From contig CP181398.1 of NCBI GenBank assembly GCA_047946875.1, positions 1,064,409-1,128,408 on the forward strand: 64,000 nt of DNA, written 5' to 3'. Made by a program: the position numbers and the translations under genes. Position 1 is the first letter of the stretch, and each line of letters starts with the position of its first letter. Positions 30,945-64,000 of this stretch are shown piece by piece. Origin of the DNA: Candidatus Kerfeldbacteria bacterium (GTDB taxonomy: Bacteria; Patescibacteriota; Patescibacteriia; UBA10025; JAHIVO01). Under the pieces are notes generated by a model. It was not told where the DNA came from, searched no databases, and saw nothing but the letters and a program-made list of their open reading frames with translations.

Positions 30945-31571
30945 CTACAGCAGAGAAATGCCAAGATTAAATGTAAAGCCATTATTACTGTCGGTTCTAA
31001 ATGGTCCACCAGAGTAAGAATTCATTATATGTTGTAAAGAGAATCCTATAAAAACCATTCCTGAGCCTGTTTTAATGCCAAACTCTGCACTCAATAAGAA
31101 ATAGCTTTGTTTCAGACGTGCTAATGAACCATCCTGAATATTCGTATTCATCTTCACACCAGATAAATCATAAACACCGGTTATCTTCCCTCTCCAATGG
31201 ACAAATGATAATTGCCTACTTCGAGAGTAAAGCTTGGACCAAGGTGTGGCCACAAAAGTACCTACACCTAGTTTTGATTTTTCTTCCTGATAGCTTCCAG
31301 CTGATGCATTCGCATAATGAGTATAAACTAGCGCAAAGTTGAAAAACCTTGCCAACTTATAGCTTGTCGTAACTCCAAAAGCACCGGAGAGCTTGATGTC
31401 GGTTGATGGCACATGAACAGTCTGTCCACCTGGCAGATACACAGACACTTCGAGAGGATTCAAATGACCTCGCTTGCGTTGAGCTTCGGCCGGTATAGCA
31501 AACATCCCTATTGGTAATAATATTATTACCAAAAACTTTAGCATTGTTGAACGGAAAATACAGCTCTCCAT
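30945..31571 (-). CDS. Outer-membrane-type beta-barrel protein candidate (OmpW/OmpX-like small porin fold)
   Basis: Signal peptide …MLKFLVIILLPIGMFAIPAEA. Repeated amphipathic alternating-hydrophobic strands (VSVYLPG, FALVYTHY, LGVGTFVATPW, LSFVHWRG, SYFLLSAEFGIK, GFTFNLGISLL). Strong AAGGAGG ribosome-binding site. GC is visibly higher than its neighbours. Confidence 0.45.
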   Translation of the reverse strand: MESCIFRSTMLKFLVIILLPIGMFAIPAEAQRKRGHLNPLEVSVYLPGGQTVHVPSTDIKLSGAFGVTTSYKLARFFNFALVYTHYANASAGSYQEEKSKLGVGTFVATPWSKLYSRSRQLSFVHWRGKITGVYDLSGVKMNTNIQDGSLARLKQSYFLLSAEFGIKTGSGMVFIGFSLQHIMNSYSGGPFRTDSNNGFTFNLGISLL

Positions 31572-32475: not shown

Positions 32476-34131
32476 ATGAAAAAACTAGCCTTCGTTTTAG
32501 GAATATCCATAGCCATTTTTGTCAGCGCAAACTTTGCTGAAGCTATTCAAATTATTGATGATGCTCTGCAAGTTAACTCATTAAGAGTTGGTCAACAAGG
32601 GGTTGGTGGTGTTACCTACTTTAATGGCACCATCATTAATGAAACAACTACTGATGGGGTGGGTAATCCTGTAGCTTTTGGAGATGATGTTAGAATAGAT
32701 GGAAGACTGTTTCGTGGAGCAACAGCTGGTACTGGAGATACACAACCATTCATTATTAATGATAATCTTGAAGTTGTTGGATCATTAACTGTAGGATCAA
32801 CTAACATACTTTCCAGTTTAAGCTCTCTTGGAACGACTGATGCCAACTTACAATCTCAGATTACCACTTTAGAAACAACGGACTCTAGTTTGCAATCTCA
32901 GATCTCTGCCAAAGGAGTTGGTGATATGTTGAAGTCAACCTACGATATTGCTGGAAACAGCAAGATAGATGCTGGGAAACTAGATTCTGGTATTGCTGCT
33001 ACATTGATCAGTAGTGGTGGCGTAAATAACACAATTTTTAATTATTTAGCTAGTCTTAATTTAGATAATACCGGCAATATTCATTTAACAGCTCTTGGTA
33101 TTGACGCTGGGGCATTAGTTACAGGAGCAGATAACACACTTTTTGGCTATCAGGCTGGAGATGCAATTACTTCGGGAATCAATAATACAGCATTTGGCTA
33201 CAACACACTTAGTGCTATATCTACAAATGCCAATAATACCGCAATTGGCAGTAACGCACTTGCTGTTAGCACTGCAACTAATAATACAGCAATTGGATAT
33301 GATGCTTTAGCAGCTAATACAATAGGTAATTCAAATACTGCAGTAGGAAGTAAAGCATTAGACGCAAATACTGAAGGTGAATTTAACACAGCAATCGGCT
33401 ATAGTGCTCTTACTGCAAATATATTAGCCAGTTCAAACACCGCTATCGGATATAATGCCATGGCAGCGCACAATGGCGCTGGTGCTATGAATGTTGCTAT
33501 TGGTAGAAATGCCTTAGATGCTAGCACAGGTGGAACTTGGAATGTAGCTGTTGGTTATGAGACTCTTACTACTGGCACGGGTAATGACTCGAGCGTTGCC
33601 GTTGGTTATCAGGCTTTAAGAGTAGCGCTTGGTGATAACAATGTTGCCGTTGGTTATCAGGCTGGGAACGGAATAACATCTGGGAATAATAATATTCTGA
33701 TTGGATATGATATTGATGCGGCTTCTCCTGGAGCAAGTAGTTATTATTTAAATATTGGTGATATCCTAACAGGAAGTCTTGACCCTACTGCACCTGGGCT
33801 CAGCATAGATAGTGGATTTGCATTAACACCATCGACAGATCAAACAAGAGAGGCTACATCTACTATTACAATTGATAATGGTATTGTTAGAGTAGTAAGC
33901 GATGGGGGAGGAATTGTTTTAGGAAGTACTGCAATTGAAGATGGAGCTGCAGATGGACAAATTGTAATTATTCAAGGCACTCACGACACCAATACAGTTC
34001 AAATACCAAATGCCGCTAATACTGCTCTCGTGGGTGATGCTGCAATTACTTTAGGTAAGGGAGATAATATACAATTAATGTGGGATAGTGGCGACAGCTT
34101 ATGGTATGAGATAAGTCGCGCCGATCATTAA
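32476..34131 (+). CDS. Secreted repeat protein with YadA-head/Hep_Hag-like beta-helix repeats (adhesin or fibre-like)
   Basis: Signal peptide MKKLAFVLGISIAIFVSANFA. Duplicated TTDxxLQSQI segment. More than 12 repeats of N(T/N)A(I/V)GY.AL.A (NTAFGYNTL, NTAIGSNAL, NTAIGYDAL, NTAVGSKAL, NTAIGYSAL, NTAIGYNAM, NVAIGRNAL, NVAVGYETL, SVAVGYQAL, NVAVGYQAG…), resembling the YadA head SVAIG repeat. Confidence 0.55.
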   Translation: MKKLAFVLGISIAIFVSANFAEAIQIIDDALQVNSLRVGQQGVGGVTYFNGTIINETTTDGVGNPVAFGDDVRIDGRLFRGATAGTGDTQPFIINDNLEVVGSLTVGSTNILSSLSSLGTTDANLQSQITTLETTDSSLQSQISAKGVGDMLKSTYDIAGNSKIDAGKLDSGIAATLISSGGVNNTIFNYLASLNLDNTGNIHLTALGIDAGALVTGADNTLFGYQAGDAITSGINNTAFGYNTLSAISTNANNTAIGSNALAVSTATNNTAIGYDALAANTIGNSNTAVGSKALDANTEGEFNTAIGYSALTANILASSNTAIGYNAMAAHNGAGAMNVAIGRNALDASTGGTWNVAVGYETLTTGTGNDSSVAVGYQALRVALGDNNVAVGYQAGNGITSGNNNILIGYDIDAASPGASSYYLNIGDILTGSLDPTAPGLSIDSGFALTPSTDQTREATSTITIDNGIVRVVSDGGGIVLGSTAIEDGAADGQIVIIQGTHDTNTVQIPNAANTALVGDAAITLGKGDNIQLMWDSGDSLWYEISRADH

Positions 34132-41278: not shown

Positions 41279-42067
41279 TTGAGTAAATTATCGTTCATTA
41301 CAGTAAAAGACACTAGTTCTCTGTCAACAGACGGAATACTTCACTTATTTATGGAGTCTTGTCCAAACGGGTATGAGACCTGGAAAAAGTTTCGAGACGA
41401 AGCAATGAGTCTTGTGGCAAGTGCAAACAAAATTCAAAGCGTGATATTCGATATTTCCGGAATTGAAATCCCAGACAAAGAATGGTTTTTTATCAGCGGA
41501 GCTCTTCATTCCATACGAATGAGTATCATGTCCAAAAAATACAATTTTGCACTTCTCTCTGGTGAAGAACACAGAAAAAACCGTAAGCTATATCAGATTT
41601 TATATCACACCCTCTATGCTCAAGACAGCATGAAGGAAGCGCAAGAATTCTTGGGCAAAGCACACATGCAGAATCCTGGTACTTACGAGTACACTATTAA
41701 GTCCATGGCGGGTTACGCTGAGATAAGGTTTGTAGTTAGCCAAATATACCCGATTGTATTCCCTATGAAATCCCTCAAGCGAGATATCAATGCTCTGATT
41801 AGCGATAATATTGTTAATATCGTCATCTGTAGCAATTTCGATCTCTATGGTGAATCGTCACGTAGTGAAATGAGGGGACATATGATCGCTTGGGTCTTCA
41901 ACGAACTTCTTGAAGTTCTCAATGTAAAACTCCCTAAAGGAGTTACTATCAGATTTGCTGATCCGACACTCAATACAGCTAGGTTAGCGGCTAAACAAGA
42001 CTGGCCCATTGATGATGAAGCTGATAGCTCAAAAAAGAAATTTCTCAAACCATGGGGGAAAAAGTAA
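41279..42067 (+). CDS. Hypothetical protein (two internally similar halves); island gene
   Basis: TTG start 5 nt after AAGGAGG. GC by eye about 40% against about 30% in the flanks. The halves share the pattern VIFDISGIEIPDKEWFFISGALHSI / IVICSNFDLYGESSRSEMRGHMIAWVFNEL. Confidence 0.55.
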   Translation: MSKLSFITVKDTSSLSTDGILHLFMESCPNGYETWKKFRDEAMSLVASANKIQSVIFDISGIEIPDKEWFFISGALHSIRMSIMSKKYNFALLSGEEHRKNRKLYQILYHTLYAQDSMKEAQEFLGKAHMQNPGTYEYTIKSMAGYAEIRFVVSQIYPIVFPMKSLKRDINALISDNIVNIVICSNFDLYGESSRSEMRGHMIAWVFNELLEVLNVKLPKGVTIRFADPTLNTARLAAKQDWPIDDEADSSKKKFLKPWGKK

Positions 42068-42170: not shown

Positions 42171-42215
42171 AATACGTTCAATAATAAAGCAATATTATAA
42201 AAAGTGGAGGAAATA

Positions 42216-42608
42216 ATGGCTGAAACTATTGAGCAACGCTGCTCTATACCAAAATGGCACTGGTTCAATGTCATGAAAGATCTGGAAACACAAGGGAAAC
42301 TCCCCGGTGTAACTATTGACCCTCTTTCTGTGAAAGAGAATGGCTGTGCAGGAGAAACAGCTAAGGGCACCAGATTTTATTTTTCTTGGATCAAAGACAC
42401 TTTTCTGTTACTAAGTATGGTACCAGAAGAGTTAGAACTAATAGAGGCTTTCGCCGCTATCGTTGAATACCGCCCTTTTTGCAGGTATACTACCAATTCA
42501 GAAGATGGTACCGAGATGATCACCTTCGAATGGGATAAAAAAGACTCGCAAGGAAGATTTGTGGAGCTACAGAAAGAAAGAAAAGAGAATCTCCAGCCTG
42601 TTGAATAA
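42216..42608 (+). CDS. Hypothetical 130-aa protein; island gene
   Basis: ATG 5 nt after GGAGG (the track start at 42204 is an upstream GTG). No family recognised. Confidence 0.5.
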   Translation: MAETIEQRCSIPKWHWFNVMKDLETQGKLPGVTIDPLSVKENGCAGETAKGTRFYFSWIKDTFLLLSMVPEELELIEAFAAIVEYRPFCRYTTNSEDGTEMITFEWDKKDSQGRFVELQKERKENLQPVE

Positions 42609-56929: not shown

Positions 56930-57006
56930 TGGTAGCGCCAAGGGGATTCGAACCCCTGTTACCACATTGAAAGCGTGGTGTCCTGACCAAGCTAGACGAT
57001 GGCGCC
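56930..57006 (-). tRNA. tRNA-Glu (anticodon UUC), CCA encoded
   Basis: The reverse complement GGCGCCATCGTCTAGCTTGGTCAGGACACCACGCTTTCAATGTGGTAACAGGGGTTCGAATCCCCTTGGCGCTACCA folds as a cloverleaf. Anticodon loop CTTTCAA, T-loop TTCGAAT. Near-colinear with E. coli tRNA-Glu. Confidence 0.9.
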
Positions 57007-57017: not shown

Positions 57018-57312
57018 TTTACTCAATTAAGTTGTTTTAGTTGTTTACGAAGTAGCCCTGATTTTTTAATTTGTTGTTCCCTTTTACGAGTATCTGTTTT
57101 ATTCAAGAATTTTTCAATTTTAACTAATTTATAAGGTATATATGATTTTGATGAACTTACATTGCCATTATTATGCTCTTTGATTCTTCGATTAACATTA
57201 TTAGTACTCCCTATGTATAATCTACTATTTTTTATGCTTTTAAGAATATATACGTAATACATAATTATATTATTATCAAGCTTCCGGCATAGCCGGATCA
57301 GGCTCTGCCTGA
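57018..57312 (-). mobile_element. Mini-insertion carrying a GIY-YIG nuclease gene, bounded by ~20-bp direct repeats
   Basis: About 300 bp between the repeats. It contains only the 79-aa GIY-YIG ORF plus two short GC hairpins (CCGGC-ATA-GCCGG, TCAGGC-TCT-GCCTGA) in its 5' leader. Confidence 0.5.
57023..57262 (-). CDS. Small GIY-YIG-domain nuclease (UPF0213/YhbQ-like)
   Basis: YVYILKSIKNSRLYIGSTNNVNRRIKEHNNG matches GIY…YIG…R…E.H.G and is colinear with E. coli YhbQ ([30 protein letters not shown]). Confidence 0.8.
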   Translation of the reverse strand: MYYVYILKSIKNSRLYIGSTNNVNRRIKEHNNGNVSSSKSYIPYKLVKIEKFLNKTDTRKREQQIKKSGLLRKQLKQLN

Positions 57313-60059: not shown

Positions 60060-60105
60060 AAAAGAAAACCCGAGTCACATCCTATGTGAATCGGGTTATT
60101 ATTTG
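60060..60105. terminator. Bidirectional hairpin between convergent VanW and 60184..60807
   Basis: AACCCGAGTCACAT-CCT-ATGTGAATCGGGTT (14 bp, one mismatch). A-rich before it and T-rich after. Confidence 0.6.
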
Positions 60106-60183: not shown

Positions 60184-60807
60184 CTATGAACCGTTTGCAG
60201 TTTTGTCACTCCCGCTTTCATTAAATATGTTACTCCACCAAGGCTCTTCTTCTGTCGAGATTGGTCGTTCTTTGAGTTTTGTAAAAAGTCTCTGATCAAG
60301 TCCGGTGATCGCTACGGTTACAATCTGACCAGATTCCAAACTAGTAGCATCGTTAATTTGCCAGGGATCCCAGTGGGTTGTTTTGGTATGTTCCCATTTG
60401 TTTATAATCATGGGATCTTCCATAACACTAGTTGGGGTTAGGGAGATATTGTATCCTCCTAAAATTGGATCGAGATCTCCAGTAATTTGGTAATCACCGG
60501 ATGATAGGACATGTGTTCCTTGGTCTGAAGTATCAGCAATATCACCTTCTTGATAATTGCCAGTAATATTCATACCAAAACTGAAGAAAAACAGCATGAG
60601 GAATGGTGCTATTGTTCTAACTGGCTTGCCGAGGTACTTATGTGCACCAAATTTGCGAATCGAAAATGCAAGGGCAATACTAAGCAGCATTACTATTACA
60701 AAGAGGATTGTTAGTGGGACACTAGTACTTGTGAAAAGGCTCATAAATGGGTCATAGAGAATTGTTTTGACACCATCTGCAAACCATTTCAATAGATATT
60801 CAAGCAT
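60184..60807 (-). CDS. Hypothetical membrane protein (two N-terminal TM helices plus ~130-aa extracytoplasmic domain); island gene
   Basis: Ribosome-binding site AAGGAGAT 6 nt before the ATG. GC by eye above 40%. Confidence 0.5.
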   Translation of the reverse strand: MLEYLLKWFADGVKTILYDPFMSLFTSTSVPLTILFVIVMLLSIALAFSIRKFGAHKYLGKPVRTIAPFLMLFFFSFGMNITGNYQEGDIADTSDQGTHVLSSGDYQITGDLDPILGGYNISLTPTSVMEDPMIINKWEHTKTTHWDPWQINDATSLESGQIVTVAITGLDQRLFTKLKERPISTEEEPWWSNIFNESGSDKTANGS

Positions 60808-60858
60808 AATTATCTCCTTGAAACTTATTAAATTACTTCCTTGTCTTGTTTTGGATTG

Positions 60859-61041
60859 TTAATCCAAACTATCTGGCGGTAAAGATGATCGTCCGCAATC
60901 ACCACCGATATCATCACGCTGATGATCTTCGAGGCGATAATTTGCTGCCTCATTGTCATCTCTGTATCCAGCATCACCTGGGTTGGTAGCCTTAATGACT
61001 TTGATGTTGAATCCGTTACAGACTGGACAATGTCCTGTCAT
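60859..61041 (-). CDS. 60-aa Cys-containing (CPVC) acidic small protein, first gene of a two-gene operon
   Basis: MTGHCPVCNGFNIKV…. Ribosome-binding site AAGGAGGT 5 nt before the ATG. Confidence 0.45.
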   Translation of the reverse strand: MTGHCPVCNGFNIKVIKATNPGDAGYRDDNEAANYRLEDHQRDDIGGDCGRSSLPPDSLD

Positions 61042-61395
61042 TGTTATACCTCCTTAGTGTATTTTAATATGTTAATGATACTATCTATATATACAAACAA
61101 CCGGCAACCAATTAATATAAGTTAATGCTCACTAATCTGCAGTCAAGAAGGTTGTTATAAGGGAAAATTAAGAATAAATCCCCAATAATCCTTAAATCAA
61201 ACTCCATGCTTGTCGTGACTGCAGGTTAGTAAACACCACTTGTTTAACTAATAAGCTTCCGGCTGTAAATAAACGAAAAATGTGATATTTAAAGGTCTAA
61301 AATTAATAACAGTCAATATTAACACAAGCTTTTCATCTTGTCAAGGGCGGTTTTAAATGATAAGATCTTAGTATTAATAATATAATTAAATATTT

Positions 61396-63562: not shown

Positions 63563-64000
63563 ATGGTCATATTATTAAGGATGTTTAAGTGGCCATATGA
63601 ATCGGTCGCAAAAAAATTGCCTAGTTTTTTAACCAGGATATTAATGCTGGATAAACTAACATGGCTTTCACCAGATACCTGGTGTTATATAAGAGTTTTT
63701 TTAGCGTTAGTTATAATACTGGCCATAAAAGAACAGGTTAACCTATATATTATAGTGAGTTTGTATTGGGTGGCTGTCTTCACAGATTTTATTGATGGAG
63801 CCCATGCACGTGCAACAAACCAAGTTTCTGAGTTTGGTGCAAAGCTGGATCCTATTGCTGATAAATTTTTTATTGGCATTATCTTGCTATTTTATGGCAT
63901 GGACCTAATCGGTGGACAAATCGTAGCAATGTTTTTATTGGTTGAGGGGATGTTATTGTTTACATCTATTTTTCTTAAACCATTTTTAAAACAAAGGTAT
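63563..64000 (+). CDS. CDP-alcohol phosphatidyltransferase (PgsA-like), 5' partial; runs off the window end
   Basis: DFIDGAHARATNQVSEFGAKLDPIADK matches D(x2)DG(x2)AR…G(x3)D(x3)D. ATG 63563 after AAAGAGGTG. The frame is open to base 64000. Confidence 0.7.
   Translation, partial: MVILLRMFKWPYESVAKKLPSFLTRILMLDKLTWLSPDTWCYIRVFLALVIILAIKEQVNLYIIVSLYWVAVFTDFIDGAHARATNQVSEFGAKLDPIADKFFIGIILLFYGMDLIGGQIVAMFLLVEGMLLFTSIFLKPFLKQRY

What the first reader, a model, noticed from the sequence alone, without database searches (positions are those of the whole stretch)
60184..61060. High-GC two-gene operon: CPVC mini-protein plus membrane protein, both with Firmicute-style RBS
A 60-aa acidic protein with an N-terminal CPVC knuckle is followed 51 nt later by a 207-aa protein with two TM helices and a ~130-aa external domain. 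Both genes have AAGGAG(G/A)T ribosome-binding sites and visibly elevated GC. The operon is bounded by a long bidirectional hairpin. The composition and translation signals differ from native genes, which suggests acquisition. Function is unknown. Small Zn-ribbon plus membrane partner pairs occur in anti-sigma and stress-sensing modules.
Basis: partly seen in the sequence, partly recalled or inferred. Interest (0 to 1): 0.5.

Follow-up and report, generated by a model that had tools for sequence, protein, structure and literature searches.

The report
Orphan membrane operon riding a conserved sRNA
The two GC-rich genes are real but are not a recent foreign import: they are a clade-specific pair of orphan proteins (a small zinc-binding protein and a membrane protein) that sits directly behind, and is probably transcribed from, a strongly conserved structured RNA gene that has no match in Rfam.

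Summary
On the minus strand of a 31%-GC Kerfeldbacteria (CPR) window lie a 60-aa and a 207-aa gene. They are 51 nt apart, both have AAGGAG ribosome-binding sites and raised GC, and they end at a bidirectional hairpin.

- The pair lies at the same place (NIF3-RuvB | pair | VanW-DUF3006-HSP20) in the closest relatives, with the same GC excess and the same binding sites. It is therefore old in the clade.
- No donor, phage relative, mobility gene or sigma factor was found.
- Both proteins are extreme orphans: 9 and about 5 relatives among billions of proteins.
- The mini-protein has invariant Cys5, Cys8, His40 and Cys49 and a confident predicted fold with no structural match.

It holds a structured RNA gene with its own near-consensus promoter.
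- Its exact 21-nt core occurs in 43 Patescibacteria species genomes, mostly in the same neighbourhood.
- Covariation strongly supports the fold.
- Nothing in Rfam 15 matches it.

In most lineages the RNA ends in its own terminator, right next to VanW. Only in the window's clade do varied membrane-protein genes with strong ribosome-binding sites follow it. The protein function remains inferred.

The parts
61316..61344 (-). Sigma-70-type promoter of the sRNA: TTGACA, 17 nt, TAATAT, with TG before the -10. It is probably also the promoter of the operon.
   Evidence: Best promoter match in the region (10 of 12). The CTTGACAAGAT...TAA(T/C)ATTGA block is conserved in L001, L003 and L052. Similar TTGACA promoters precede the RNA in most other loci. 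No comparable promoter match lies between the RNA and the mini gene.
61070..61309 (-). Full clade-specific form of the structured sRNA/leader: a 5' leader, an outer stem (CAGCCGG.../...CCGGUUG) and the core hairpin. The ends are approximate and inferred.
   Evidence: 82% mean column identity with L001 and L003 across the intergenic region. MFE -67.8 kcal/mol, z = -4.4 against shuffles. The outer stem appears in the window's MFE and is present in L001, L052, L006 and L007 but deleted in L003.
61115..61246 (-). Core hairpin of the sRNA: a variable covarying stem P1, an invariant stem CUGCAGUCA/UGACUGCAG, an invariant 10-nt 5' bulge CGACAAGCAU, stem P3 (GGRG.../...CUUC) and a variable apical hairpin.
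   Evidence: The exact 21-mer occurs in 43 species-representative genomes and in L052. On the 45-sequence alignment A6, 39 pairs are 89.9% paired (68% in shuffles, 40-48% when slid), the covariation score is 0.571 against 0.172, and 25 pairs change on both sides. Model R1 scores 100.7 bits on the minus strand and 27.1 on the plus strand, with a single copy in the window. No Rfam 15 match.
61048..61055 (-). Shine-Dalgarno sequence AAGGAGGT of the mini gene, 6 nt before the ATG.
   Evidence: Duplex energy -13.3 kcal/mol, the strongest of 57 ORFs. Conserved as CAAGGAGGT in L003.
60859..61041 (-). Mini-protein gene: 60 aa, cytoplasmic, candidate Cys3His zinc site (C5, C8, H40, C49), motifs KATNPGDAG, NEAANYRL and LPPDSL.
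   Evidence: ORF. Nine family members among 5.8 billion proteins. C5, C8, H40, C49, R36 and L54-P55-P56 are invariant. AF2 pLDDT 89.9, pTM 0.70. No fold or sequence match. Purifying selection.
60812..60819 (-). Shine-Dalgarno sequence AAGGAGAT of the membrane-protein gene.
   Evidence: Duplex energy -8.5 kcal/mol. The same CAAGGAGA sits in front of the orthologues in L004, L006/L007 and L008.
60184..60807 (-). Membrane-protein gene: 207 aa, with an N-terminal amphipathic helix, two TM helices joined by a basic loop (RKFGAHKYLGKPVR), a beta domain of about 80-100 residues predicted to face outward, and an acidic disordered tail.
   Evidence: ORF. Family of about 5 representatives among 1.84 billion clusters. 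24% identity (E 2e-12) to the L001 partner, and no relation to the L003 partner. AF2 pLDDT 65 overall and 70-84 in the beta domain. dN/dS 0.27 against L004. No family match.
60067..60097 (.). Bidirectional terminator hairpin shared by the operon (minus strand) and the convergent VanW gene (plus strand).
   Evidence: Sequence AACCCGAGTCACAT-CCT-ATGTGAATCGGGTT with flanking T/A runs. Folding energy -18.9 (plus) and -20.0 (minus) kcal/mol. The consensus terminator scan did not flag it.

Best explanation
The locus is a composite transcription unit. A housekeeping-type structured small RNA is conserved across many Patescibacteria lineages, in the fixed neighbourhood RuvB<-NIF3<- | RNA-> | <-VanW<-HSP20. 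It is transcribed from its own near-consensus promoter.

In most lineages the basal stem of the RNA plus a U-run terminates transcription right next to VanW. In the window's Kerfeldbacteria-related clade that terminator is missing or weak, and clade-specific membrane-protein genes now occupy the slot between the RNA and VanW.

In this window those genes are the 60-aa mini-protein and the 207-aa membrane protein. They are most likely expressed by read-through from the sRNA promoter and terminated at the hairpin shared with VanW.

The mRNA begins with a very stable structured RNA and lacks the AU-rich, SD-less leaders that most genes here use. Both cistrons therefore depend on strong canonical Shine-Dalgarno sites. 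The GC/GC3 excess is a maintained property of this transcription unit, not a mark of recent import.

The mini-protein is a cytoplasmic, slowly evolving domain. It probably binds zinc through Cys5, Cys8, His40 and Cys49. The 207-aa protein is a fast-evolving two-pass membrane protein that exposes a small beta domain and an acidic tail outside the cell. My best guess is that the two form a small envelope or cell-surface accessory module, with the mini-protein as the intracellular partner.

**Shown:** gene reality, synteny, the RNA structure and its distribution, orphan status, the composition and SD statistics.

**Inferred:** co-transcription, zinc binding, membrane topology, the protein-protein partnership and the envelope role.
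For: - **RNA.** The exact 21-mer occurs in 43 species genomes plus L052. Covariation is strong. The strand is resolved at 100.7 against 27.1 bits. The RNA has its own promoter.
- **Synteny.** tblastn finds NIF3/RuvB upstream and VanW/HSP20 convergent downstream in most of the 45+ loci, with VanW identity down to 33%.
- **The slot.** The RNA core start lies 156-330 nt from the VanW 3' end in most loci. The distance is 657-1963 nt only in relatives of the window (RuvB 66-83% identical). Two loci at 72-74% RuvB identity (L013, L037) have no insert and do have a T-run terminator.
- **Slot contents.** The inserts are different SD-led membrane proteins in L017/L024, L029, L041, L044 and L003, and the mini + 2-TM set in L001, L052, L006-L008 and the window.
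- **Promoter.** No promoter match lies between the RNA and the mini gene.
- **SD and composition.** Only 5 of 57 ORFs have a strong SD. The GC3 excess recurs in L001, L003, L006 and L008 against their own flanks, although synonymous sites are saturated.
- **Mini-protein.** Invariant C5/C8/H40/C49 and an AF2 pLDDT of 89.9.
- **Membrane protein.** The helices and beta domain come from the AF2 model. The basic inter-helix loop and acidic C-terminus are read from the sequence, and the orientation follows the positive-inside rule (established knowledge).
Against: - There are no expression data, so co-transcription rests on promoter and terminator patterns alone. A weak internal promoter in the conserved GTATATATAG block cannot be excluded.
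- The outer stem followed by UUGUUUGUAUAU could act as a partial terminator.
- The GC3 excess has no demonstrated cause.
- Nothing shows that the two proteins interact. The membrane partner is replaced by an unrelated protein in L003, and the mini-protein's net charge flips between subgroups (acidic in the window, basic in L006, L007 and L052).
- The 207-aa model is only moderately confident (pLDDT 65), and the fold of its beta domain could not be searched on its own.
- No known family supports an envelope role.
Confidence: 0.5

Rival explanations
1. Recent horizontal acquisition: a two-gene cassette from a higher-GC, SD-using donor such as a Firmicute, which landed between NIF3 and VanW and has not yet ameliorated.
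For: GC and GC3 are among the highest in the window, and strong SDs are rare here. The genes are missing from the same slot in most Patescibacteria loci.
Against: The same genes occupy the same slot in L001, L003, L052, L004 and L006, whose synonymous sites are saturated relative to the window. The GC3 excess persists in every one of them. No homologue exists outside this small clade among 5.8 billion and 1.84 billion protein sets, nor in viral contigs. There are no flanking repeats and no integrase or transposase. A few clearly native conserved genes also carry SDs, for example the CDP-OH transferase gene in L001 and L003.
Confidence: 0.08
2. Locally born or fast-turnover genes ("gene nursery"): read-through transcription behind a strongly expressed sRNA gene exposes downstream DNA to expression, so new small membrane-protein genes repeatedly arise, diverge or are swapped in this slot. 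The present pair is one such product, with no deep ancestry. This is a view about origin and can hold together with the best explanation.
For: Related lineages carry unrelated SD-led membrane ORFs in the same slot, and L013 and L037 have none. Both families are extreme orphans. The membrane partner diverges very fast: 24% identity where the mini-protein keeps 73-75%. Several slot proteins share an MLE/MLD + hydrophobic N-terminus.
Against: The mini-protein has a confident, compact predicted fold and an invariant four-ligand site, and it evolves as slowly as RuvB or HSP20. That is unlike a young gene. The slot is GC-richer than the genome, which is not what is expected from AT-rich intergenic raw material.
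Confidence: 0.25
3. RNA-protein module: the zinc mini-protein binds the upstream sRNA and, through the membrane protein, localises or regulates it. This would loosely resemble OLE RNA with its OapA/B/C partners.
For: The genes are directly linked to the RNA in every genome that has them. Small Cys/His zinc domains often bind nucleic acids (general knowledge). The subgroup in L006, L007 and L052 is strongly basic.
Against: The RNA is present in dozens of lineages that lack the mini-protein, so the protein cannot be its general partner. The window's mini-protein is acidic (net about -5). There is no similarity to known RNA-binding folds.
Confidence: 0.08
4. Anti-sigma or stress-sensing module: a zinc-binding cytoplasmic factor plus a membrane sensor that controls a sigma factor.
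For: There is only the general resemblance of a small Cys/His protein paired with a membrane protein that has an external domain.
Against: None of the neighbours scanned with Pfam between 49.3 and 63.5 kb is a sigma factor, and none appears in the syntenic loci. The ZAS motif HxxxCxxC is absent: His4 is adjacent to Cys5 and is Arg in three family members. The predicted fold is beta/coil rather than a helical anti-sigma domain. There are no Pfam or NCBIfam anti-sigma hits.
Confidence: 0.03
5. Toxin/immunity, holin-like or defence cassette made of small hydrophobic proteins.
For: Relatives carry extra 41-56-aa single-TM proteins with charged C-termini. The slot content turns over quickly.
Against: There are no PADLOC or PHROG hits and no lysin or nuclease partner. 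The window itself lacks the small TM gene. The locus is chromosomal, syntenic and not phage-linked.
Confidence: 0.05

Closest known systems
E. coli ssrS (6S RNA)-ygfA/fau dicistronic unit (from general knowledge)
   Same: A structured, stable small RNA sits at the 5' end of a transcript that continues into protein-coding genes. The sRNA promoter drives the downstream ORFs.
   Different: There is no sequence or Rfam similarity to 6S. The RNA here is a simple hairpin with a 10-nt one-sided bulge rather than a large two-sided central bubble. The downstream genes are unrelated orphan membrane proteins, and the linkage exists only in one subclade.
OLE RNA with OapA/OapB/OapC (from general knowledge)
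   Same: A highly conserved structured RNA of unknown function is genetically linked to a membrane protein and small accessory proteins.
   Different: No homology was detected (no Rfam OLE hit, and no Pfam hit for either protein). The RNA is about 130-240 nt rather than about 600 nt. Most lineages carrying the RNA lack the proteins. No evidence of binding exists.
Dual-function sRNAs such as SgrS/SgrT and RNAIII/hld (from general knowledge)
   Same: One transcript serves both as a structured RNA and as an mRNA for small, partly hydrophobic proteins.
   Different: Here the ORFs lie downstream of the structured RNA rather than inside it. No base-pairing target is known. The RNA is far more widely conserved than the ORFs.
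Zinc-ribbon / zinc-knuckle mini-proteins (C4 type)
   Same: An N-terminal CPxC knuckle sits on a beta hairpin in a protein of about 60 aa, with four conserved Cys/His residues.
ZAS-type anti-sigma factors (RsrA, RslA, ChrR)
   Same: A Cys/His metal site, sometimes paired with or fused to a membrane segment.
   Different: There is no HxxxCxxC motif, no adjacent sigma gene and no helical anti-sigma domain.

Membership tests
ZAS anti-sigma factor | H-x3-C-x2-C zinc motif in a helical anti-sigma domain | tested here: not met
   The motif here is G-[H/R]-C-P-x-C. The His is adjacent to the first Cys and is replaced by Arg in P0016, P0017 and L007. The AF2 model is beta/coil with one 4-residue helix.
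ZAS anti-sigma factor | Cognate (ECF) sigma-factor gene adjacent or in the same operon | tested here: not met
   The neighbours are NIF3, RuvB, VanW, DUF3006, HSP20, GIY-YIG, TsaD, ValRS and a T2SS ATPase. The gene order is the same in L001 and L003. The rest of the window was not scanned with Pfam.
C4 zinc ribbon / rubredoxin-like knuckle proteins | Two CxxC (or CxxH) knuckles contributing four ligands | tested here: not met
   Only one CxxC (C5, C8) is present. The remaining invariant candidates are the single residues H40 and C49. There are no Pfam hits and no structural neighbour.
Zinc-binding protein (generic) | Four conserved Cys/His ligands brought together in the fold, with metal bound | tested here: inconclusive
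   C5, C8, H40 and C49 are invariant in 9 of 9 sequences and the fold is confident.
Class I c-type cytochrome (c-551/c-552) | CxxCH haem-attachment motif, a distal Met ligand and a signal peptide | tested here: not met
   The best PDB sequence match is cytochrome c-552, but at E = 0.57. The residue after the CxxC is Asn or Gly rather than His. LPP stands in place of MPP. The protein starts 4 residues before the CxxC, so it has no signal peptide. The model is not helical.
Horizontally acquired genomic island | Atypical composition relative to the host genome | tested here: met
   GC ranks 1 and 5 of 57. GC3 is 0.33-0.34 against 0.225.
Horizontally acquired genomic island | Absent from the same site in close relatives, with an identifiable donor or mobility signature | tested here: not met
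   The pair is present at the same site in L001, L003, L052, L004 and L006. There are no outside homologues, no flanking repeats and no mobility genes.
Known Rfam RNA families (SRP RNA, 6S RNA, RNase P, tmRNA, riboswitches, OLE, raiA and others) | Covariance-model match at or near the gathering score | tested here: not met
   No family matches the RNA position in the window at E <= 10. None matches at gathering score in 18 diverse loci. L046 and L018 give only noise below 20 bits. ARAGORN finds no tmRNA.
6S RNA (by architecture) | Closing stem, large two-sided central bubble and terminal stem, about 150-200 nt | tested here: not met
   The consensus is a single hairpin. Its only large unpaired element is a 10-nt bulge on the 5' side, opposite 1 nt. 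RNA polymerase binding cannot be tested here.
Structured noncoding RNA (generic) | Conserved secondary structure supported by compensatory changes beyond controls, with strand specificity and its own transcription signals | tested here: met
   89.9% of cells are paired. The covariation score is 0.571 against 0.172 in shuffles and at most 0.177 when slid. 403 cells have double changes against 143. The minus strand scores 100.7 bits against 27.1 for the plus strand. Promoters and T-run terminators are present.

The most novel reading that the evidence does not exclude
The element upstream of the operon is a previously undescribed housekeeping RNA of the ABY1/Parcubacteria-type Patescibacteria. 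More than 30 of its nucleotides are invariant, and it works as part of an RNA-protein complex. In the Kerfeldbacteria-related clade it has become the 5' module of a dual-function transcript. On this reading the zinc mini-protein and the membrane proteins physically associate with the RNA, giving a miniature membrane-tethered RNP analogous to OLE-OapABC. The slot behind the RNA also serves as a cradle for new membrane-protein genes.
Probability: 0.1. Interest if true: 0.85.

Novelty: new variant of a known kind. Interest (0 to 1): 0.6.

Why it matters
Patescibacteria (CPR) are a large and poorly understood part of bacterial diversity, with tiny genomes in which little is expected to be dispensable.

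- **A new RNA to study.** A structured RNA with a 21-nt core identical in 43 species genomes, in fixed synteny and missing from Rfam, is a concrete target. Pull-downs of its partners, or its deletion in the few cultivable relatives, could reveal a missing piece of CPR core biology.
- **A caution for island calling.** A persistent GC and SD anomaly can mark a special transcription unit rather than foreign DNA. This matters for horizontal-transfer calls in AT-rich, largely SD-less genomes.
- **A view of gene turnover.** The varied membrane-protein genes behind the RNA offer a natural series for studying how new envelope genes arise or turn over in reduced genomes.
- **An unclassified zinc domain.** The mini-protein is a compact, confidently predicted Cys3His candidate domain with no structural neighbour.

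Tried and rejected
- **Protein family scans.** Pfam, NCBIfam, PHROGs and PADLOC gave nothing for either protein or for the L003 partner, apart from sub-threshold DUF hits on the TM region.
- **Word-indexed protein searches.** The 207-aa query returned only itself and one 75% relative. The mini-protein returned itself and two relatives, then 9 in total with a profile.
- **Exhaustive HMMER search with the 207-aa profile.** It found four real relatives. It also found three FG-GAP/SBBP repeat proteins that match only a short GDY..GDLD..GG.N stretch, which I judge to be a motif-level resemblance.
- **Protein-pattern scans.** The GTDB genomes, JGI metagenomes and viral contigs held no relatives.
- **Structure searches.**
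  - AFDB libraries were unavailable.
- **PDB sequence searches.** Cytochrome c-552 at E 0.57 was rejected as chance. The 207-aa profile gave only noise.
- **Rfam.** Six scans in all: four aimed at the RNA gave no match to it, and the other two, which also covered it, returned only a tRNA and a weak PreQ1-like hit elsewhere. The RNA is therefore not SRP, 6S, RNase P, tmRNA or a known riboswitch by these models.
- **Literature.** Searches for the sequence and for CPR ncRNA, 6S or riboswitch papers found nothing relevant. This does not prove that the RNA is undescribed.
- **A small ORF inside the RNA** (31 aa, 61112..61207). Rejected: it is not conserved in length or frame in relatives, and the covariation pattern fits RNA pairing.
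- **Flanking direct repeats as an insertion scar.** Only AT-rich chance matches turned up.
- **Electrostatic pairing between the acidic mini-protein and the basic membrane loop.** Dropped, because the mini-protein is basic in the L006/L007/L052 subgroup while the partner loop stays basic there, at least in L006/L007.
Full report
**1. What is at the coordinates**

The window is AT-rich (31.1% GC). An identical copy of the 207-aa protein is recorded from a Candidatus Kerfeldbacteria MAG, on a 1.3-Mb contig.

- The 60-aa ORF is at 60859..61041 and the 207-aa ORF at 60184..60807. They are 51 nt apart.
- The ribosome-binding sites are AAGGAGGT (61055..61048) and AAGGAGAT (60819..60812).
- A 14-bp hairpin at 60067..60097 folds at -19 to -20 kcal/mol on either strand. 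It is shared with the convergent VanW gene. The consensus terminator scan did not flag it.

I put numbers on the two anomalies.

- Only 5 of 57 ORFs in the window have an SD duplex of -8 kcal/mol or better. The median is +0.4, meaning no SD at all. The two genes score -13.3 (the best in the window) and -8.5.
- Their GC is 0.448 (rank 1 of 57) and 0.397 (rank 5), against a mean of 0.315 (sd 0.046). Their GC3 is 0.33-0.34 against 0.225 (sd 0.055).
- Strong-SD genes as a group are GC3-rich: 0.321 against 0.216, Mann-Whitney p = 0.009.

Both are genuine coding genes. For the 207-aa gene against its 75%-identical relative, dN/dS is 0.27. For the mini gene, pN is 0.16 against a saturated pS of 0.89, much like RuvB and HSP20.

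**2. The proteins are extreme orphans**

Pfam, NCBIfam, PHROGs and PADLOC find nothing.

- A search of 5.8 billion proteins finds the 207-aa protein itself and one relative.
- An exhaustive profile search of 1.84 billion cluster representatives finds four true relatives of about 200 aa. It also finds motif-level hits to FG-GAP/SBBP repeat proteins.
- The mini-protein family has nine members.
- Scans of GTDB species genomes, JGI metagenomes and viral contigs with the protein patterns find none.

- No His follows the CxxC.
- The protein has no signal peptide.
- The model is not helical.

The 207-aa model (pLDDT 65) has five parts:
- an N-terminal helix;
- two hydrophobic helices joined by the basic loop RKFGAHKYLGKPVR;
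- a five-strand beta domain (pLDDT 70-84);
- a disordered acidic tail.

**3. Presence in relatives: not a recent import**

The contigs that encode the relatives place the mini gene in the same neighbourhood, RuvB<-NIF3<- | genes-> | <-VanW<-DUF3006<-HSP20. This holds in two other MAGs (L001, L003) and in fragments L004 and L006-L008. In L052 the held contig confirms only the NIF3/RuvB side, and in L008 the downstream neighbour is a TrmB-family gene rather than VanW.

In those genomes the genes are again GC- and GC3-richer than their flanks. In L001, for example, they are at 0.53 and 0.46 against 0.34-0.42. They again carry CAAGGAGG-type sites, while most neighbours have none.

Synonymous sites between these genomes are saturated. 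A foreign signature should have ameliorated by now, so its persistence points to a maintained local property.

The membrane partner evolves very fast. It is 24% identical between the window and L001, where the mini-protein keeps 73-75%. In L003 an unrelated 211-aa multi-TM protein takes its place. Several relatives carry an additional 44-56-aa single-TM gene just upstream of, and overlapping, the mini gene (L001, L002, L006-L008, L052). The window and L003 lack it.

There are no flanking repeats and no mobility genes. No neighbour scanned between 49.3 and 63.5 kb is a sigma factor.

**4. The missed element: a conserved structured RNA upstream**

The 354 nt between the mini gene and NIF3 are 82% identical to L001 and L003, with long blocks at 100%. 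That is better conserved than the coding DNA. The stretch begins with the best promoter match in the region, TTGACA-17-TAATAT with a TG, at 61344..61316. It folds far better than shuffled sequence (-67.8 kcal/mol, z = -4.4).

Searching GTDB species genomes for the 21-nt core CTGCAGTCACGACAAGCATGG returned 43 genomes. They are labelled Uhrbacteria, Falkowbacteria, Komeilibacteria, Parcubacteria or Patescibacteria group, plus TPA assemblies whose labels look unreliable. A second pattern recovered L052 and L053 from JGI metagenomes. Viral contigs gave none.

An alignment of 45 distinct copies (A6) gives a single hairpin with these parts:
- a variable outer stem P1;
- an invariant 9-bp stem CUGCAGUCA/UGACUGCAG;
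- an invariant 10-nt bulge CGACAAGCAU on the 5' side;
- stem P3;
- an internal region with a frequent AGGA/UCCU pair;
- an apical hairpin.

Covariation is strong:

| Measure | Observed | Shuffled | 3' partner slid |
|---|---|---|---|
| Cells forming a standard pair | 89.9% | 68% | 40-48% |
| Covariation score | 0.571 | 0.172 | at most 0.177 |
| Cells changed on both sides | 403 | 143 | 109-176 |

In addition, 25 of the 39 pairs change on both sides. One caveat applies: the 5' core is invariant by selection, because I searched with it. The 3' core, the bulge context and all the covariation are not.

A covariance model scores the window copy at 100.7 bits on the minus strand and 27.1 on the plus strand, and finds no second copy. 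The G-U pairs in the window's P1 also fit only this strand.

Nothing in Rfam 15 matches the RNA. This holds in the window at E <= 10, in 18 diverse loci at gathering score, and in two further loci at E <= 10. Literature searches found no description. That absence is not proof of novelty.

**5. How the RNA and the operon relate**

tblastn with the window's neighbours shows that the order RuvB<-NIF3<- | RNA-> | <-VanW<-HSP20 holds in most of the loci, even where VanW is only 33% identical.

- In most loci the RNA core starts just 156-330 nt from the 3' end of VanW.
- In 20 of 45 loci P1 is followed directly by a T-run, making it an intrinsic terminator, with no SD-led ORF on the same strand. There the RNA is a free-standing gene.
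- The gap is larger only in relatives of the window, where RuvB is 66-83% identical. It is then filled with SD-led membrane-protein ORFs of several unrelated kinds:
  - a roughly 100-aa two-TM protein in L017 and L024;
  - a 132-aa protein in L029;
  - a 198-aa protein in L041;
  - three small proteins in L044;
  - the mini plus a 211-aa protein in L003;
  - the mini plus 2-TM set in L001, L052, L006-L008 and the window.
- Two loci at 72-74% RuvB identity (L013, L037) have no insert and keep a terminator.

The window's RNA has no clean U-run. The scan finds no promoter match between the RNA and the mini gene.

The most economical reading is that the operon is a clade-specific 3' extension of the sRNA transcription unit. 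It would be expressed by read-through and terminated at the hairpin shared with VanW. This step is inferred and has not been shown.

It does offer a reason for the strong SDs. Most genes here start from AU-rich, SD-less leaders, whereas these cistrons follow a very stable structured RNA. The cause of the GC3 excess remains open. Translational selection or a transcription-linked bias are the candidates.

**6. What it most likely does**

I commit to the following model, with stated uncertainty.

| Step | Probability |
|---|---|
| The sRNA promoter drives the operon | about 0.6 |
| The mini-protein is a cytoplasmic zinc domain using C5, C8, H40 and C49 | about 0.7 |
| The 207-aa protein is a two-pass membrane protein with its beta domain outside | about 0.7 |
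| The two proteins act together as an envelope or surface accessory module, with the fast-evolving outer domain under external (host, phage or environmental) pressure | about 0.3 |

On origin, a long-resident lineage-specific addition is well supported. Whether it arrived by ancient transfer from an unsampled source or arose and diversified locally cannot be decided.

The anti-sigma analogy fails its defining features. The toxin, holin, defence and RNA-binding-partner ideas have little support. The membership tests and rival explanations give the details.

**7. Comparison with known systems, and novelty**

In architecture the unit resembles E. coli ssrS-ygfA, where an sRNA is followed by co-transcribed ORFs. 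It also resembles dual-function sRNAs and, more loosely, OLE RNA with its membrane partners. It is not a member of any of these.

The proteins define two tiny new families. The RNA is a strongly supported structured RNA family that is absent from Rfam 15. I therefore rate the whole as a new variant of a known kind. As an orphan gene pair alone the operon is of modest interest. The conserved RNA and the variable gene slot behind it raise the interest to about 0.6.

Noticed in passing
window, all 57 ORFs listed: About 90% of genes in this window have no Shine-Dalgarno sequence and start from AU-rich leaders. The few strong-SD genes are GC3-rich (0.321 against 0.216, p = 0.009) and are mostly orphans.
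   Followed up: partly
window 41279..42067 (+), 42204..42608 (+) and 30945..31571 (-): These are further GC3-rich ORFs (0.34-0.40) with no Pfam or NCBIfam hits. Two of them have AAGGAGG sites. The 208-aa one has a signal-peptide-like N-terminus. They may be the same kind of lineage-specific gene as the pair studied here.
   Followed up: partly
window 63615..63655 (-): A weak PreQ1 riboswitch-like match: 24.5 bits (gathering score 39), E 0.14, full model length. In relatives a queuosine-synthesis gene (queA type) lies a few genes beyond RuvB.
   Followed up: no
window 57023..57262 (-) and 56930..57006 (-): A stand-alone 79-aa GIY-YIG nuclease-domain ORF sits immediately next to tRNA-Glu(UUC).
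   Followed up: no
window 32476..34131 (+): A 551-aa protein with a C-terminal phage-depolymerase beta-sandwich domain (Pfam E 2e-5). It has high GC1/GC2 but ordinary GC3.
   Followed up: no
window 61115..61246 (-), and loci L009-L052: Inside the invariant RNA helix the 3' strand reads UUGACU, which resembles a -35 hexamer. The invariant bulge region AGUCACGACAAGCAUGG resembles the universally conserved 16S rRNA stretch AGUCGUAACAAGGUA. Both may be coincidence. Neither is explained.
   Followed up: no
L018, L022, L033, L043 (Uhrbacteria-labelled loci): In these loci the RNA follows a gene ending ...YGLVDKVIKSA (ClpP-like C-terminus). The 5' leader carries a partial second copy of the core (CCGCAGUCACGA), and a separate terminator hairpin follows the core. 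The transcript there is therefore longer, at roughly 230 nt.
   Followed up: no
L003 6925..7760: In this relative a pair of 139-aa ArsP_1 permease-like genes has been inserted between the slot genes and VanW. This is another sign that the region tolerates gene insertion.
   Followed up: no
locus list: Many of the genomes that carry the RNA are labelled 'uncultured Gammaproteobacteria' (TPA assemblies), and one is labelled 'Pirellulales'. Several of them (for example L012, L021, L025, L040) nonetheless share the NIF3/RuvB/VanW/HSP20 neighbourhood seen in the Patescibacteria-labelled loci, while a few (L016, L028, L042, L048) share none of it. The labels look unreliable.
   Followed up: partly
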